A stretch of 16,485 nt of DNA from positions 1 to 16,485 of the forward strand of contig JBNAVT010000019.1 of NCBI GenBank assembly GCA_049700215.1. The letters run 5' to 3'. Under the pieces are notes generated by a model. The model was given only the letters and a program-made list of their open reading frames with translations, was not told where the DNA came from and did no database searches. How positions within the stretch are numbered: the first letter of the stretch is position 1; every line of letters starts with the position of its first letter. Below are positions 1-9,332 of the stretch, one piece after another. Both the position numbers and the translations under genes were made by a program. The DNA is from Thermoproteota archaeon. Its GTDB lineage: Archaea > Thermoproteota > EX4484-205 > JAAOZP01.

Positions 1-742
1 AGAGCTCCCTCGCGGGCATCGCGAAGGAAACATAGCCCATTTCAACCTGCCTCCTAACGGCCCAATCCATCTGGCGAAGGTTAGCGCCCTTAACCAGCCC
101 AATCAGAGGAATATCCAGCTTAAGGAATTCGTTCGCTAGGGAGACGAGCCTCATCGTTTGAGACCAAGATTGATAAAGCGGAACATCAGTGTAAGTATAG
201 TTATCTGGAATCATTGTGGCGTCTGGCCCCAGCTCTCCGATCAGCCTAAAGTAGTCCTTGGTCTCAAGCCTATCTATAAGCTCGTCAGGCATAACCGTCG
301 ACAACAGTATTTTGCCATCGAAGCCAAGATAATCATGAAGACCCTTGCCCGAAGCCTGAACCAGCATGCTTCTATTCGTAAGCAGCTGCCAGAGTGGCAC
401 GAAAACCGCTGATACTTGAAAACCCTCCCTCCATATCCAGGATCTTTGGTCAGTAATATCGATCTCGGGCACAAACCTAGGGAATCTTACCTTTATCGTT
501 TGTTTTCTCCCTGGCGATGGAACCTCCAATGGAGGAGGTCTATTCTTGCCTCCAATCGGGCAATACTGTCTGAGCCTGCAGAAACCCTTGGGATGCGTTA
601 TCCCAATATAGGAAGCGCCCCTGATGCATTCATCCACCACGCAAGCCTCGATCACGCAGCCAATGCAAGGCTTCTTAAAATAGGGACAGCTTACGCAATC
701 AAGCCCACACTTGCTCCTCCTCAACGCATCATTTTTCAACAC
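1..742 (-). CDS. Cys-rich N-terminal domain + divergent TGT-like/DUF4417-like protein (partial, runs off the left edge)
   Basis: Not in the ORF track; translated by hand. The frame is open from GTG 742 (alternative TTG 748 or 739; in-frame TAA at 752-754) to position 2. It reads MLKNDALRRSKCGLDCVSCPYFKKPCIGCVIEACVVDECIRG...FCRLRQYCP...GKGLHDYLGFDGKILLS...ELGPDATMIPDNYTYTDVPLYQSWSQTMR...IPLIGLVKGANL. The CDS call is firm; the family is judged by motif resemblance only. Confidence 0.8.
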   Translation of the reverse strand, partial: MLKNDALRRSKCGLDCVSCPYFKKPCIGCVIEACVVDECIRGASYIGITHPKGFCRLRQYCPIGGKNRPPPLEVPSPGRKQTIKVRFPRFVPEIDITDQRSWIWREGFQVSAVFVPLWQLLTNRSMLVQASGKGLHDYLGFDGKILLSTVMPDELIDRLETKDYFRLIGELGPDATMIPDNYTYTDVPLYQSWSQTMRLVSLANEFLKLDIPLIGLVKGANLRQMDWAVRRQVEMGYVSFAMPAREL

Positions 743-796
743 TTCCAAGATTTAAGCAGATACGTCCAGCTGGGCTCAAATACTAACCTTTCTTGA

Positions 797-822
797 AGCC
801 TCGGGAGGGATTTGAACCCTCG
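797..822 (-). other. tRNA 3'-end module (T-arm + acceptor 3' strand + U discriminator), tRNA-Thr-like
   Basis: Minus strand reads C-GAGGG-TTCAAAT-CCCTC-CCGAGGC-T. Bases 804-822 are identical to 1067-1085 of tRNA-Lys, but the acceptor strand differs. No D arm or anticodon arm is recognisable upstream. Confidence 0.85.
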
Positions 823-986
823 GCAAGCAGATGTCCCGGCCTTCACATATGAGGCTGCTAACCTAAGTGGTAGGTAGCTTGCGGATAGCAGGCTTAGGAG
901 CCTAGTCGAAAAGGTATTCAAGTATCCGGAGAGCAAACTGCATGGTTGCAAGCTGGCCTCAGTAAAGGCCTCGCAGCCGATGAGGC
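797..986 (-). ncRNA. candidate ~190-nt structured tRNA-like RNA
   Basis: 5' GCCTC(ATC)GG (986-977) is complementary to 3' CCGAGGC. Nested, abutting helices fill 853-978, and their G-U wobbles form only on the minus strand. Folded by eye. Confidence 0.45.
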
Positions 987-1059
987 TTGAGGAAGGAAGC
1001 TAATTAATGAGCGCCCCATTACGCTTCGTGTTCACCCTAGGTATAGGATGTGGTTAGAG

Positions 1060-1164
1060 CGGGCCCGGAGGGATTTGAACCCTCGACCCTCAGGTTAAGA
1101 GCCTGCTGCTCTACCATGTTGCTCCGAGATATATTTAAATTTTTCTCGACTGAGCTACGGGCCC
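1060..1164 (-). tRNA. tRNA-Lys(CTT) with 31-nt intron at position 15/16
   Basis: GGGCCCG TA GCTC AG[intron]CATGGTA GAGC A GCAGG CT-CTT-AA CCTGA GGGTC GAGGG TTCAAAT CCCTC CGGGCCC G. CCA is not encoded. Confidence 0.95.
1119..1149 (-). other. non-canonical archaeal tRNA intron (relaxed BHB/BHL motif)
   Basis: Central 4-bp helix GCTC/GAGC, 3-nt bulges AG^T and AA^C, and an intron hairpin CGAGA...TCTCG. Removing it restores the D loop AGCATGGTA. Confidence 0.85.
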
Positions 1165-1188
1165 TCGCGTTTTCAGCGTAAGGGAGGG

Positions 1189-1204
1189 TAATTAAAGTTT
1201 TTCG
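1189..1204 (-). promoter_or_regulatory. BRE-TATA promoter of tRNA-Lys
   Basis: Minus strand CGAAAAAC-TTTAATTA, ending 25 nt upstream of the tRNA 5' end. Confidence 0.7.
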
Positions 1205-1485
1205 TTCAGTGTTTGGGCTGTGTGGATTGGGCATGGTTCAGGGTGCTGTTGATAGATTTTTGTTTCTTATTTGGACTTTTTATCTGGTTGAAGTGTAGGT
1301 TTTCCCCTGGTTTTCTTTGGTTTTGCGTGACAACAGTATTCTTTGTTTGTTGGCTTGCCGTGGGGTTTTTCTCCTCTGCCCGCTTCTTCCCGCATTGGTG
1401 GCATGGGGAGGCTCCGCCTCGCGCGCTTAAGCGGGGTTTTTAAAATTTTTAACCCTGTATGCTTACGGCTAGTGGTGGAGGCTTA

Positions 1486-7110: not shown

Positions 7111-8181
7111 TTGCGAGACAAGAGTAGGCACACGGTTAGGCTCCCGAGGCGCATAATACTGGGGAGAGACGCTGTTGAGGAGCTGGGCTCCAGCGTGAGG
7201 GAGCTCGGGGCTAAGAGGGTAATCGTTTTAACAAGCAAGACCCCGATTAGGCTCTTCGGGGAGAAGATTAGGAGAATACTATCTGAAAGCAGGCTCTTCT
7301 TCAGGCTGAGCCCCGTAGGAGAGGGCGACGCTTTCACGGAGGCCCTGAGGCTTGAGAAGCGTCTAGCCAAGCCGGACAGGAAGCCGGGGGCAAGCGTGGT
7401 CGTCGGCTTCGGAGGAGGGAGGGTTATTGACGCTGGCAAGATACTCGCCTGGAGGAACAGCCTTGAGTTCATAAGCGTCCCCACTGTTCCCTCTCACGAC
7501 GGGATTGCGAGCCCGCTTGCTTCAGCCCCAAGGCGGGGAAGAAGATACTCGTTCAACACGATAATGCCCTCGGTGATAATAGGGGATGTTTCAATCCTCG
7601 CTACAGCTCCGCCAAGGTATTTCGGCGCCGGGGTCGGCGACCTTGTTGCGAAGCATACTGCGGTGAAGGACTGGCGTCTCTCCCACACGCTTCGCGGAGA
7701 ATACTACGGCGAGTATGCTGCAAGCCTTGCTGAGACGATTGCGGAGAGAATAGTTAAATGCGCTGAGACGATCGCTGGGGACAGGGTTGAGGGAGCCAGC
7801 ATACTGGTTGAAGCATTGATACACGCCGGGGTGCTCATAGGCATAGCTGGAAGCAGCAGGCCGTGCAGCGGCTCCGAGCATCTCTTCAGCCACGCGCTCG
7901 ACTATGTTGCGGGCTACCCGGCTCTACACGGCGAGCAGGTTGGAATAGGAACGATAATGATGAGCAAGCTTCACGACGGCGACTGGCTCAGAATAAGGAG
8001 CGCGCTCTCGAAAGTCGGCGCGCCGGTTTCCGCCAGGGGGATAAACGTTTCAGAGAAACAGGTTGTTAAAGCCCTCACCCTCGCCCACACAATAAGGCCT
8101 GAAAGATACACTATACTCGGGGACAGGGGTTTAACGAGGAGGGCTGCGGAGGAGCTTGCGAGAAGCACGATGGTGATATAG
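7111..8181 (+). CDS. egsA: sn-glycerol-1-phosphate dehydrogenase
   Basis: GFGGGRVIDAGK, PTVPSHDGIASP, SRPCSGSEHLFSHALD, LHGEQVG and RPERYTIL motifs. Confidence 0.96.
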   Translation: MRDKSRHTVRLPRRIILGRDAVEELGSSVRELGAKRVIVLTSKTPIRLFGEKIRRILSESRLFFRLSPVGEGDAFTEALRLEKRLAKPDRKPGASVVVGFGGGRVIDAGKILAWRNSLEFISVPTVPSHDGIASPLASAPRRGRRYSFNTIMPSVIIGDVSILATAPPRYFGAGVGDLVAKHTAVKDWRLSHTLRGEYYGEYAASLAETIAERIVKCAETIAGDRVEGASILVEALIHAGVLIGIAGSSRPCSGSEHLFSHALDYVAGYPALHGEQVGIGTIMMSKLHDGDWLRIRSALSKVGAPVSARGINVSEKQVVKALTLAHTIRPERYTILGDRGLTRRAAEELARSTMVI

Positions 8182-8191
8182 GTGTCTAGCC

Positions 8192-8629
8192 GTGGGCATT
8201 TACAGCTACCTCGACCCGTCTGCGAGAAAAGGCATGGTCTTCACCTACATGGGTGAAGCATACGAGTGCGAGGAGTGTGCAGCCAGGGAGAGGTGCCACG
8301 GCTCTCTGGCCGCAGGCTTCTCGTACAGGGTTGTCAGGAAGACGGGCGGCGAGAAGGTTTACTGCAGGCTGAGAGGAGGCGAGGCCGCGCCCTTCGAGCT
8401 AAGCATGGAGCCTCTCACTCTCATCTCACCCGGCAGGGTGAAGGAGGGCGCCTCCACGACGATTAGAAACAGCTTCTGCAAAGCCGGGTGCAGCAGGATC
8501 CTGGAGTGCCCCGTCGTCTTCAACACGCTGGTGTCAAACCGCAGAGTCAGGGTTGTCGAGAAGCTTGGGGCTTTCAACTGCCCCGGGGAGAAACTGGTCC
8601 TGGTTAAGGCTGAGATTGCTGAGGAGTAG
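8192..8629 (+). CDS. UPF0179 family protein
   Basis: F.Y.G...ECEEC.....C..L..G..Y pattern plus a second Cys cluster; the usual neighbour of egsA. Confidence 0.8.
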   Translation: MGIYSYLDPSARKGMVFTYMGEAYECEECAARERCHGSLAAGFSYRVVRKTGGEKVYCRLRGGEAAPFELSMEPLTLISPGRVKEGASTTIRNSFCKAGCSRILECPVVFNTLVSNRRVRVVEKLGAFNCPGEKLVLVKAEIAEE

Positions 8630-9332
8630 CCTGGGCCTCGCCGCTGGGCGCTGCCTCAGGCGCCGTGAAAACATCCGTGAACTCAACGGTTTTAACGTTC
8701 TTAACAATGGTGAAAACGTCTTCTGAAACAGCCTTCTTAACTTGTTGAATCCCCTCTGACAGGAGAATCCGCTGGGGAAGCCTTATCGAAGCCCTGTCCC
8801 CGTTGATCTCGACACCAACCTCCTCGACGGAAACCTCTGGCAGACGCCTGTTAACAAGATGCCTAATCTTCTCAGCGTCATCCTCAATAACCTTGAGTAT
8901 TTTAAACCTGTAGACCAGGGTCCTGCCTGCGAGAGGCGGGTTGAAATCGATATGGACTCTTCCGCTACTCACAGTCCTCACAACGCCAATCCTGTTATCC
9001 ATCTCAACCAGGGTCCCTGGGGCGAGCTCCTGGGGCTTGGAGAACCTTCTCGCAGCATACGTCTTAACCTTACCCGGGTCCCTGAAGCCGTAGGCCTTTT
9101 CAGGAGGTATTTCAACAGTCCTCTCGACGCCGATCTCGCTCTTGAGAAGCTCCTCCTCCCAGCTTTCCAAAACCCATTTCCCACCCAGGTATATCAGCCT
9201 AGGGGAATACTTCTCACCCTCCCTGTATATCGACGCCCTCTTAGCCTCCTCCTCCACAGTGGTCTCTATAATGCTGCCGGTCTCCTTAACGGTTAGAGTA
9301 TAGTCGACGAGCACTAGTGAACCAGGCTCCAT
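8604..9332 (-). CDS. slyD: long-type FKBP peptidyl-prolyl isomerase
   Basis: GSLVLVDYT, IPPEKAYG.RD and IDFNPPLAGRTL motifs plus the archaeal C-terminal extension. Confidence 0.93.
   Translation of the reverse strand: MEPGSLVLVDYTLTVKETGSIIETTVEEEAKRASIYREGEKYSPRLIYLGGKWVLESWEEELLKSEIGVERTVEIPPEKAYGFRDPGKVKTYAARRFSKPQELAPGTLVEMDNRIGVVRTVSSGRVHIDFNPPLAGRTLVYRFKILKVIEDDAEKIRHLVNRRLPEVSVEEVGVEINGDRASIRLPQRILLSEGIQQVKKAVSEDVFTIVKNVKTVEFTDVFTAPEAAPSGEAQATPQQSQP

What the first reader, a model, noticed from the sequence alone, without database searches (positions are those of the whole stretch)
1..1164. Candidate new system: tRNA-Lys, then a tRNA-mimic RNA, then a Cys-cluster TGT/DUF4417-like enzyme, co-oriented
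Seen: three minus-strand elements are packed tightly, with 73 nt between the tRNA and the structured segment and about 50 nt between its discriminator and the CDS start. No oligo-T terminator separates them. Established: TGT-fold enzymes (Tgt, aTGT, DpdA) exchange bases in tRNA or DNA, and RNase P and RNase Z cut at acceptor/T-arm modules. Inference: the RNA could be a substrate, decoy, guide or processing signal for the adjacent enzyme, in an accessory island anchored at tRNA-Lys. I know of no described system with this layout.
Basis: partly seen in the sequence, partly recalled or inferred. Interest (0 to 1): 0.8.

Follow-up and report, generated by a model that had tools for sequence, protein, structure and literature searches.

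The report
tRNA relic inside a mobile cassette
The supposed tRNA-mimic RNA is a leftover piece of a threonine tRNA gene joined to a scrap of another gene, and it lies inside a small three-gene mobile element that inserted into the end of a lysine tRNA gene of a hot-spring archaeon.

Summary
The sequence features exist, but they do not form an RNA-plus-enzyme system.

- **tRNA-Lys(CTT), 1164..1060 (-).** It is real and carries a conserved 31-nt D-loop intron, which is why ARAGORN misses it.
- **The 'tRNA mimic', 986..797.** It is a mosaic. 858..797 is the 3' part of a tRNA-Thr gene, from the anticodon stem to the discriminator. 995..~863 is the antisense of a stop-riddled fragment of an unrelated multi-copy gene.
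- **The CDS, 748..2.** It has a TGT fold (nearest solved structure ArcTGT 1iq8). ArcTGT Asp95 and Asp249 align to Ser.
- **The gene family.** It is multi-copy, and a LAGLIDADG gene and an orphan gene always follow it.
- **The insertion.** The window's first 55 nt equal the end of contig C37. There the cassette continues and ends in an exact 24-nt copy of the tRNA-Lys 3' end. A sister genome has the empty site. Everything from 1057 leftwards is therefore a ~3.06-kb insertion.
- **Upstream of other copies.** Of 20 others, 2 have a complete tRNA-Thr where this one has the relic. The rest have other tRNAs, a protein gene or nothing.

The scan has met this cassette before on other DNA. My three literature searches found no description of it.

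The parts
1060..1164 (-). tRNA-Lys(CTT) gene, the integration target (attL side)
   Evidence: Rfam RF00005 scores 32.4 bits for 1128..1064. ARAGORN calls tRNA-Lys(ctt) after in-script removal of 27-34 nt from the D-loop, 240 of 400 variants tested. Acceptor stem and T arm are identical in 6 of 6 same-genus orthologues.
1119..1149 (-). predicted 31-nt intron in the D-loop (after position 15), with a relaxed bulge-helix-bulge motif
   Evidence: RNAalifold on 6 orthologues pairs GCTC with GAGC, leaves a 3-nt bulge, then pairs CGAG with CTCG. The loop varies between genomes and one genome has 23 extra nt. The exact cut sites are inferred from the recalled rule that the endonuclease cuts after the second bulge nucleotide.
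1058..1081 (.). left copy of the exact 24-nt direct repeat (T loop to 2 nt past the discriminator)
   Evidence: The second copy is at G000:C37:12625..12602, 3062 nt away in the joined contigs. The empty site is in G002:C34.
972..1057 (-). left arm of the insertion, shared with decayed cassettes behind tRNA-Lys in two other genomes
   Evidence: 95% identical to G006:C71 down to 1016, and 78% identical to G011:C47 down to 972. It overlaps the next part.
863..995 (+). fragment of about 45 codons, with stop codons, of a large multi-copy protein family; its antisense forms the 5' two-thirds of the 'tRNA mimic'
   Evidence: blastn: 79% identity to G000:C8:1266-1385 and 77% to C9:39754-39827. tblastn: 62.7% over 51 aa to residues 411-461 of the 901-aa C8 protein, E=2.8e-10. 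Stops in frame.
797..858 (-). 3' part of a tRNA-Thr gene (anticodon stem, degenerate intron, T arm, acceptor 3' strand, discriminator U); a relic att or attL piece
   Evidence: 82% identical to the 3' parts of G000's own tRNA-Thr(CGT) and tRNA-Thr(TGT). The two closest cassette copies have a complete tRNA-Thr at this place. The anticodon reads CAT instead of CGT, and one anticodon-stem pair is broken. Joined in a script to an intact native 5' part, it gives only a distorted ARAGORN call.
749..796 (-). cassette spacer with a TATA-like box (CTTAAAT at 756..750)
   Evidence: Homology to G007:C48 runs unbroken from the Thr T arm through this spacer into the gene: 81% over 112 alignment columns, window 843..741. 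A similar A/T box at this place is seen by eye in most upstream regions printed.
2..748 (-). cassette gene A: N-terminal 249 codons of a TGT-fold protein with a nine-Cys N-terminal region. It is cut by the contig end and continues on G000:C37, where a 4-nt deletion shifts the frame. The true start may be the in-frame TTG at 724.
   Evidence: Open frame. 83% identical to the full-length G007:C48 copy. The family profile hits ArcTGT 1iq8 at E=6.3e-8. AF2 pLDDT 82.3, and the top 50 Foldseek hits are all TGT. Frameshift.

Best explanation
Window 1..1057, together with the last ~2 kb of contig C37, is one ~3.06-kb copy of a three-gene mobile cassette. Gene A encodes a TGT-fold protein, gene B a two-motif LAGLIDADG endonuclease, and gene C an orphan protein. 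The cassette inserted into the 3' end of a genuine, intron-containing tRNA-Lys(CTT) gene and duplicated 24 nt of it.

The 'tRNA-mimic RNA' is not a gene. It is debris in the cassette's left arm. One piece is the 3' part of a tRNA-Thr gene, which marks the site this cassette lineage occupies in its two closest relatives; it is either a relic att copy or a truncated attL tRNA. The other piece, fused to it, is the antisense of a fragment of an unrelated repeated gene.

tRNA-like sequence sits next to the TGT-like gene because the cassette targets the 3' parts of tRNA genes. It is not there because the protein uses that RNA.

Shown: the insertion, its repeats, the empty site, the mosaic make-up, the folds and the multi-copy state.

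Inferred: the LAGLIDADG nuclease opens the target; gene A, which lacks the aspartates at ArcTGT positions 95 and 249, serves in target binding or some other non-exchange role; and this copy is decaying.
For: 1. Contig join.
- Window 1-55 is identical to the last 55 nt of C37.
- C37 carries the rest of gene A, then B, then C, then the exact 24-nt repeat of the tRNA-Lys 3' end.

2. Empty site.
- In G002:C34 the same tRNA-Lys, with the same intron, is followed directly by the C37 right flank.
- That flank is then 96% identical over 422 nt.

3. Mobile, multi-copy family.
- tblastn with the window protein hits 21 of 31 genomes, with up to 20 matches per genome and many with stops.
- None of 5 genomes outside the order has a hit.
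- B follows A in 17 of 17 copies that have downstream sequence.
- C is full length at 18 places.
- 7 of 17 copies tested have exact flanking repeats of 16-120 nt, about 2.75-2.94 kb apart; this copy's lie 3062 nt apart.

4. tRNA association comes from targeting.
- 13 of 21 cassettes have an Rfam-scored tRNA at one end.
- That tRNA's 3' end faces either gene A or gene C.
- Several tRNA species are involved: Thr, a CAT-anticodon tRNA, Arg, Leu, Ala and Lys.
- 3 cassettes sit at the 3' end of an ITPase-like gene.

5. The mosaic.

6. Not a tRNA.

7. Not an assembly artefact.
- An independent 1024-nt Logan contig spans 65-1088 with no differences.

8. Gene A.
- Profile hit to ArcTGT at E=6.3e-8.
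- CxCxxC...H is invariant.
- Asp95 aligns to the invariant Ser150, Asp249 to Ser, and Gln169 to the invariant Lys220.
- Foldseek to 1iq8: E=2.9e-13, TM 0.63.

9. Gene B keeps the acidic residue of both motifs in 15 of 15 copies.
Against: - The history of the left arm is not resolved. The usual left repeat lies 45-70 nt before gene A; here the tRNA-Lys repeat lies 333 nt before it. The order of events is therefore inferred, whether att switching, gene conversion or recombination between copies.
- The 7-nt complement that closes the 'acceptor' is expected in only about 1% of shuffles. Calling it coincidence rests on its position inside coding homology and on its presence in G011.
- 10 of 17 copies showed no exact flanking repeat of 13 nt or more.
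- The contig join rests on a 55-nt overlap plus synteny, not on a spanning read.
- No recombinase is identified, so the mobility mechanism is unknown.
- The roles assigned to Asp95 and Asp249 are partly recalled. PMC4770233 (passages read) names Asp95 as a conserved D-loop contact and Gln169 as the guanine binder. Asp249 as nucleophile is recalled.
Confidence: 0.85

Rival explanations
1. The tRNA-Thr 3' part is a working piece of the cassette rather than debris. It would be a second, live attachment site (or a target mimic) that lets the cassette move between tRNA-Thr and tRNA-Lys genes, which share a 19-nt stretch of the T arm.
For: - Its 5' limit, the anticodon stem, matches the 5' limit of the 76-nt flanking repeat of the tRNA-Leu copy.
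- It sits exactly where the left repeat of other copies sits, with its T arm about 70 nt before gene A.
- 15 nt of its T arm are identical to the right-hand repeat.
- tRNA-Lys and tRNA-Thr share CGAGGGTTCAAATCCCTCC.
Against: - Only this copy carries it.
- Its anticodon arm is degenerate.
- Gene A of this copy is frameshifted.
- No recombination products are available to show that it is used.
Confidence: 0.1
2. 797-986 is a true tRNA gene with a CAT anticodon, broken up by several non-canonical introns or made from split halves, as is common in this intron-rich lineage.
For: - The genome has many intron-bearing tRNAs. ARAGORN finds only 32 tRNA genes.
- tRNA-Lys next door has a D-loop intron.
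- A 7-bp acceptor-like closure can be drawn.
Against: - 0 of 8001 single-segment deletions give a tRNA.
- The 5' part is homologous to a protein gene throughout, with no D arm.
- Three Thr isoacceptors and three CAT tRNAs are present elsewhere in the genome.
- Even with a native 5' part, the 3' part gives a distorted call.
- Variants with two or more removed segments were not tested.
Confidence: 0.03
3. One reading: the RNA is a substrate, decoy, guide or processing signal for the adjacent TGT-like enzyme, and the three form a new system.
For: - Co-orientation and tight spacing, with no oligo-T between the elements.
- TGT-fold proteins do bind tRNA (1j2b is among the fold hits).
- The insertion removed the T-run that follows tRNA-Lys in the empty site, so read-through transcription is possible.
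Against: - Not conserved upstream of the 20 other copies.
- Two-thirds of it is antisense pseudogene.
- ArcTGT Asp95 and Asp249 align to Ser.
- This gene copy is frameshifted.
- The gene has its own TATA-like box.
Confidence: 0.02
4. The mosaic is a mis-assembly of a metagenome bin.
For: - The window starts at a contig end inside a repeat.
- Many cassette copies and tRNA T arms can confuse assemblers. Logan contigs break at 795-824 and 1059-1088.
Against: - A separate Logan contig of 1024 nt covers 65-1088 without a difference. It may, however, come from the same sample.
- G011:C47 and G006:C71 share the left arm behind their own tRNA-Lys.
Confidence: 0.03

Closest known systems
Archaeal integrative elements at tRNA genes (SSV-type and pNOB8-type tyrosine-recombinase elements; reviews PMC8371274 and PMC7253208 seen only as search listing and start of abstract)
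   Same: It inserts into the 3' part of tRNA genes. It leaves a complete tRNA on one side and a partial 3' copy as a direct repeat on the other. An empty site exists in a sister genome.
   Different: No tyrosine or serine recombinase was recognised in the cassette, and PF00589 has no hit anywhere in this genome. It is only about 2.8-3.1 kb with three genes. It is found in both orientations relative to the tRNA, and also at a protein-gene end.
Archaeosine tRNA-guanine transglycosylase (ArcTGT, PDB 1iq8 / 1j2b; Pfam PF01702, TIGR00432)
   Same: TIM-barrel catalytic fold (Foldseek E=2.9e-13, TM 0.63) and the CxCxxC...H zinc site.
   Different: Asp95, Asp249 and Gln169 align to Ser, Ser and Lys. 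It scores below the Pfam and NCBIfam cut-offs. At about 370 aa it has no C1-C3/PUA domains. It has an extra N-terminal Cys-rich region of low model confidence. It is multi-copy and cassette-borne.
LAGLIDADG homing endonucleases of archaeal introns and inteins (examples such as I-DmoI are recalled, not from a call)
   Same: Gene B matches PF14528 at E=2e-11, with two motifs that keep the acidic residues.
   Different: It is free-standing, not inside an intron or intein. It always travels with two further genes, and the unit is bounded by duplications of the target.
DpdA/Dpd and phage 7-deazaguanine DNA-modification systems (recalled knowledge)
   Same: A TGT-fold gene on mobile DNA.
   Different: No ParB-like partner or preQ0 synthesis genes in the cassette. 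The aspartates at ArcTGT positions 95 and 249 are not kept. There is no NCBIfam or Pfam match beyond weak TGT hits.
tRNA gene disruption by mobile DNA in Archaea (PMC3293823, seen as search listing and start of abstract only)
   Same: tRNA gene pieces sit next to inserted DNA in an archaeon rich in tRNA introns.
   Different: Here the host tRNA-Lys stays intact. The tRNA-Thr piece is a carried relic, not a half of a split functional tRNA.

Membership tests
tRNA (for segment 797-986) | Cloverleaf with acceptor, D, anticodon and T arms, detectable by covariance model or ARAGORN | tested here: not met
   No Rfam match at E<=1. ARAGORN finds nothing. 0 of 8001 one-segment-deletion variants are called. 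There is no D arm, because the 5' part is homologous to a protein gene.
tRNA (for 1060-1164, tRNA-Lys CTT) | Covariance-model score above the gathering score; cloverleaf after intron removal; conservation | tested here: met
   32.4 bits against 29. 240 of 400 intron-removed variants are called Lys(ctt). 6 of 6 orthologues keep the acceptor and T stems.
Archaeal bulge-helix-bulge tRNA intron | Two 3-nt bulges on opposite strands separated by a 4-bp helix | tested here: inconclusive
   A 4-bp helix GCTC/GAGC with a 3-nt bulge and an inner helix CGAG/CTCG is predicted in 6 of 6. The second bulge has no clear outer helix (a relaxed form). Splicing cannot be tested here.
TGT / ArcTGT family (PF01702, TIGR00432) | TIM-barrel TGT fold | tested here: met
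   AF2 pLDDT 82.3. The top 50 Foldseek PDB hits are all TGT, with 1iq8 at E=2.9e-13. The profile hits 1iq8 at E=6.3e-8. The model is of the 83%-identical full-length G007 copy, not of the truncated window protein.
TGT / ArcTGT family (PF01702, TIGR00432) | Zinc site CxCxxC...H | tested here: met
   C326, C328, C331 and H357 are invariant in 35 sequences. In this copy the site lies beyond the frameshift on C37.
TGT / ArcTGT family (PF01702, TIGR00432) | Catalytic aspartates and guanine-binding residue (ArcTGT Asp95, Asp249, Gln169) | tested here: not met
   The HMM alignment puts the invariant Ser150, a Ser of the YSNLSW motif, and the invariant Lys220 at these places. The residue roles come from PMC4770233 passages (Asp95, Gln169) and from recall (Asp249).
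TGT / ArcTGT family (PF01702, TIGR00432) | Score above the curated family cut-off | tested here: not met
   PF01702: 12.8 bits against 26.3. TIGR00432: 12.7 bits against 350. The window's own 249 aa has no Pfam hit at E<=1.
   Not among the Pfam matches at E<=1 for P0001 or P0002.
DpdA-type DNA transglycosylase system | TGT-like gene with a ParB-like DpdB and/or preQ0 synthesis genes nearby | tested here: not met
   The cassette holds only the LAGLIDADG gene B and the orphan gene C. The feature list itself is recalled.
Site-specific integrative element at a tRNA gene | Direct repeat of the tRNA 3' end flanking the insert, plus an empty site in a relative | tested here: met
   An exact 24-nt repeat 3062 nt apart. 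The empty site is in G002:C34.
Site-specific integrative element at a tRNA gene | Element-encoded integrase (tyrosine or serine recombinase) | tested here: not met
   No such Pfam, NCBIfam or PHROG match for A, B or C. Gene C has no PDB fold relative at E<=0.001. PF00589 has no hit in the genome.
LAGLIDADG homing endonuclease (gene B, outside the window) | Two LAGLIDADG motifs with a conserved acidic residue | tested here: met
   PF14528 at E=2e-11. D or E in motif 1 and D in motif 2 in 15 of 15 copies.

The most novel reading that the evidence does not exclude
The cassette is a new kind of integrase-less mobile element aimed at tRNA genes. A TGT-fold protein that has lost base-exchange chemistry would recognise the tRNA gene's T-arm and acceptor region (or the tRNA itself), and would direct or license a LAGLIDADG nuclease. 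This copy, with a tRNA-Thr att relic carried into a tRNA-Lys site that shares the same T arm, would then record such a cassette switching targets between tRNA genes.
Probability: 0.25. Interest if true: 0.75.

Novelty: new variant of a known kind. Interest (0 to 1): 0.4.

Why it matters
This removes a false lead: there is no tRNA-mimic RNA partner of a TGT-like enzyme here.

It also gives one of the cleanest anatomies of the cassette so far, with exact 24-nt repeats, a matching empty site in a sister genome, and an internal relic of a previous tRNA target. The cassette appears not to be in print; three full-text searches listed nothing that describes it.

If the cassette moves without a classical integrase, it would add a mechanism to the short list by which archaeal mobile DNA targets tRNA genes. 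It would also bear on how tRNA genes in these lineages come to be fragmented.

For annotation, tRNA halves next to these genes should be read as insertion scars. Intron-bearing tRNAs such as this tRNA-Lys are missed by standard finders.

Tried and rejected
- **Multi-intron tRNA.** A script removed every single segment of 12 nt or more from the 5' part (8001 variants). ARAGORN made no call, as with 5 shuffled controls. Variants with two removed segments were not tried.
- **Positive control.** A native tRNA-Thr 5' part was joined in the script to the window's 3' part. This gave only a distorted His(gtg) call.
- **Longer right-hand repeat.** A global alignment of the right end to the tRNA-Lys 3' half was gap-riddled beyond the 24 nt, so I make no claim.
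- **Expression.** No RNA holder was listed for window 1-1300. The two DNA runs laid were contigs only. Nothing can be said about transcription.
- **Read laying.** It shows contig breaks at the repeated T arms and no piece that bridges the window's first base into C37.
- **Gene C.**
  - Pfam: only a 0.13 E-value hit to PoNi_N.
  - PHROGs: nothing meaningful.
  - PDB by sequence: E=0.42.
  - PDB by fold: 0 hits at E<=0.001.
  - BFVD: best hit a microvirus replication initiator at E=6.5e-4, but with TM 0.14 and rmsd 19 Å, so not accepted.
- **The large C8/C9 protein family.** No Pfam or NCBIfam family reached its cut-off.
- **Promoter/terminator scanner.** Not used, because it models bacterial signals.
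- **Unused tools.** Complex prediction, the search of protein representatives, the protein-atlas search, the look-up of encoding contigs and the search for related loci. The question did not need them.
- **Literature.** (full-text term searches) listed no paper describing a TGT-like plus LAGLIDADG cassette. Only listings and abstract starts were seen, supplements are closed, and subscription journals are not covered.
Full report
**What is at the coordinates**

The window is the first 16,485 bases of contig C19 (42,101 b) of a 2.09-Mb, 85-contig archaeal genome, 94.6% complete.

Three things lie on the minus strand:
- a tRNA-Lys(CTT) gene at 1164..1060;
- the segment 986..797;
- an open frame 748..2 that runs off the contig.

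ARAGORN reports no tRNA in the window. Rfam scores only 1128..1064 as tRNA, at 32.4 bits against a cut-off of 29. The reason is an insert in the D-loop. When a script removed 24-39 nt there, ARAGORN called tRNA-Lys(ctt) in 240 of 400 variants; the Lys calls listed had 27-34 nt removed.

In six same-genus orthologues the acceptor and T stems are identical. The insert folds as GCTC/GAGC, a 3-nt bulge, then CGAG/CTCG, with a variable loop. This is a relaxed bulge-helix-bulge motif. I place the intron at 1149..1119 (31 nt, after position 15). The exact cuts rest on a recalled rule.

**The 'tRNA mimic' is a mosaic**

A search of the organism's own genome split the segment in two.

The 3' piece, 858..797:
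- It is 82% identical to the 3' parts of the genome's tRNA-Thr(CGT) (C20) and tRNA-Thr(TGT) (C49).
- It has the same T arm, the same acceptor 3' strand and the same U discriminator.
- It starts at the anticodon stem.
- Its anticodon reads CAT instead of CGT.
- One anticodon-stem pair is broken, and the variable region is one base shorter.

The 5' piece, 995..876:
- It is 79% and 77% identical to stretches of contigs C8 and C9.
- Those stretches lie inside long open frames on the opposite strand, of 901 aa (cut by the contig start) and 558 aa.
- The window's plus strand encodes a fragment of about 45 residues of that family, with stop codons. tblastn gives 62.7% over 51 aa, E=2.8e-10.
- The family is itself multi-copy in the genome, often at contig ends.

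The heptamer that seems to close an acceptor stem (986..980) lies inside this coding homology. At the same place C8 has a version that differs by one base. G011:C47 has the identical heptamer in the same left arm, with no Thr piece beside it. Shuffling the 142-nt 5' part gives the heptamer in 184 of 20,000 trials. It is therefore unlikely a priori, but its history explains it.

No tRNA can be rescued from the segment:
- None of 8001 single-segment deletions is called by ARAGORN.
- Joined in a script to an intact native 5' part, the 3' piece gives a distorted call.
- Three Thr isoacceptors and three CAT tRNAs exist elsewhere in the genome.

**The gene and its family**

- The window protein (P0001) has no Pfam match at E<=1.
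- tblastn finds it in 21 of 31 related genomes. There are up to 20 matches in one genome, and many are fragments with stops. It finds none in the 5 genomes outside the order.
- Full-length copies are about 355-385 aa.
- In 17 of 17 copies with downstream sequence, a ~305-aa gene follows. That gene matches LAGLIDADG_3 at E=2e-11. It keeps the acidic residue of both motifs in 15 of 15 copies.
- A third gene of about 225 aa follows at 18 places. Its model is confident (pLDDT 92.1), but it has no relative in the PDB and no accepted one among viral models.
- A database search found 121 relatives. All are unnamed or 'hypothetical'. Where a source names the organism, it is a MAG labelled Candidatus Brockarchaeota or Thermoproteota.

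**Fold of gene A**

- A 35-sequence profile hits ArcTGT (1iq8) at E=6.3e-8 over the catalytic barrel.
- The AlphaFold model of the 83%-identical full-length copy has pLDDT 82.3 and pTM 0.81. Its first ~70 residues, the Cys-rich part, are below 55.
- All of the top 50 Foldseek hits are TGTs, and 1iq8 scores E=2.9e-13 with TM 0.63.
- The zinc motif CxCxxC...H is invariant.
- In the HMM alignment, ArcTGT Asp95, Asp249 and Gln169 fall on an invariant Ser, a Ser and an invariant Lys.
- PMC4770233 (passages read) names Gln169 as the G15 binder and Asp95 as a conserved D-loop contact. Asp249 as the nucleophile is recalled.
- DUF4417 is not matched.

**The insertion**

- The last 55 nt of contig C37 (14,661 b) are identical to window 1-55.
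- Read onward, C37 carries the rest of gene A, then B, then C.
- Sixty nt after gene C's stop codon there is an exact 24-nt copy of the tRNA-Lys 3' end (window 1081..1058). It lies 3062 nt from the first copy.
- In G002:C34 the same tRNA-Lys, with the same intron, is followed at once by the sequence that follows the second copy on C37. The homology then continues at 96% over 422 nt. That is an empty site.
- In the empty site a run of four T follows the tRNA. In this genome that run is now 3 kb away.
- On C37, gene A has a 4-nt deletion relative to its closest relative, which shifts the frame before the zinc motif. This copy is probably dying.
- An independent Logan contig of 1024 nt covers 65-1088 without a difference. 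It may come from the same sample.

**Why tRNA sequence sits next to this gene**

I examined 21 cassettes: 19 in loci L031-L048, one on G000:C8, and this one. They sort as follows.

| What lies at the cassette end | Cassettes |
|---|---|
| An Rfam-scored tRNA | 13 |
| A tRNA or tRNA piece seen only by eye | 4 |
| The 3' end of an ITPase-like gene, one with a 120-nt repeat | 3 |
| Nothing | 1 |

- The complete tRNA's 3' end faces gene A in some copies and gene C in others. Two copies have a rearranged gene order.
- Exact flanking repeats of 16-120 nt were found in 7 of 17 copies tested, and none of 13 nt or more in the other 10.
- The two closest relatives of the window's gene are G007:C48 (83%) and G006:C45 (80%). 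Each carries a complete tRNA-Thr (58.9 and 53.4 bits) where the window has only the 3' part.
- Homology to G007:C48 runs unbroken from the T arm through the spacer into the gene.
- The 42 to 85 nt just after tRNA-Lys recur behind tRNA-Lys in G006:C71 and G011:C47. Both carry decayed cassette remains.
- I infer that a Thr-associated cassette came to lie at a tRNA-Lys site, by att switching or by recombination with a resident copy. I cannot order the events.

**Comparison and verdict**

The layout looks like a classical tRNA-targeting integrative element, but no integrase was recognised in it. PF00589 has no hit anywhere in the genome at E<=0.001. Gene A has the TGT fold but fails the family's catalytic and score criteria.

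The earlier notes of this scan describe the same cassette on other DNA. I reached the multi-copy, LAGLIDADG and tRNA-adjacency results before reading them. I then tested their claims about the fold and the lost residues myself.

Three full-text searches listed no paper on such a cassette.

Its guesses of an island at tRNA-Lys, of a 3' duplicate and of a TGT fold were right.

Noticed in passing
whole genomes G000-G030 (not the window): Pfam TGT gives full-length hits of 241-289 bits in 12 of 14 genomes outside the window's genus. It gives none in 0 of 17 genomes of that genus, 9 of which are at least 90% complete. There, only 18-26-bit hits to the cassette gene's zinc region appear. TIGR00432 also has no hit in G000. 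The genus seems to lack canonical ArcTGT while holding most of the cassette copies.
   Followed up: partly
G000:C8:2-2704, C9:39314-40987, also C42, C57, C78, C85, C15; fragment at window 863-995: A large protein family (558 to over 900 aa) is multi-copy and often lies at contig ends. It has no family match above any cut-off. By eye it has a C-terminal IVE(V/I)KTT motif that recalls PD-(D/E)xK nucleases. It is probably another mobile or defence-linked gene.
   Followed up: partly
G000:C37:12685-13356 (cassette gene C): A confidently folded two-lobed alpha/beta protein (pLDDT 92.1) with no PDB relative at E<=0.001. It has an invariant Gly-Tyr pair (G192, Y193) among 18 copies. It is a candidate for the missing recombination function, but that is speculation.
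   Followed up: partly
window 1058-1060 and G002:C34 (L009): In the empty site tRNA-Lys is followed by GTTTTC, while in this genome that T-run now lies 3 kb downstream. tRNA-Lys transcripts may therefore read into the cassette.
   Followed up: no
genome-wide; L033, L008, L012, L013: ARAGORN finds only 32 tRNA genes in the genome. Non-canonical introns are common. Examples seen by eye are a T-loop intron in a CAT tRNA (L033), and both a D-loop and a canonical intron in tRNA-Lys of G011 and G006. G009 has a D-loop intron 23 nt longer.
   Followed up: partly
L031 (G007:C48) 7800-8858; protein P0123: Distant paralogues of gene A (25-31% identity, open frames of about 560-660 aa) exist. One lies divergently next to the tRNA-Thr cassette in G007:C48. 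One database relative of 561 aa carries a metallophosphatase domain, PF12850.
   Followed up: no
L010 (G008:C8), about 150 nt after tRNA-Lys: The palindrome TAGCGCGCGCTA lies in the otherwise unrelated DNA that follows tRNA-Lys in this genome. Earlier notes of the scan call this motif a rejoining scar.
   Followed up: no
window 7588-7604 (-): A weak partial Rfam match to CRISPR-DR9 (22.5 bits against a cut-off of 45, E=0.46), covering only the ends of the model. It is probably chance.
   Followed up: no
window 722-748: The TATA-like box (756..750) abuts the TTG at 748. The in-frame TTG at 724, about 25 nt after the box, matches the short N-termini of other copies. The real, perhaps leaderless, start may therefore be 724 rather than 748 or 742.
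   Followed up: no
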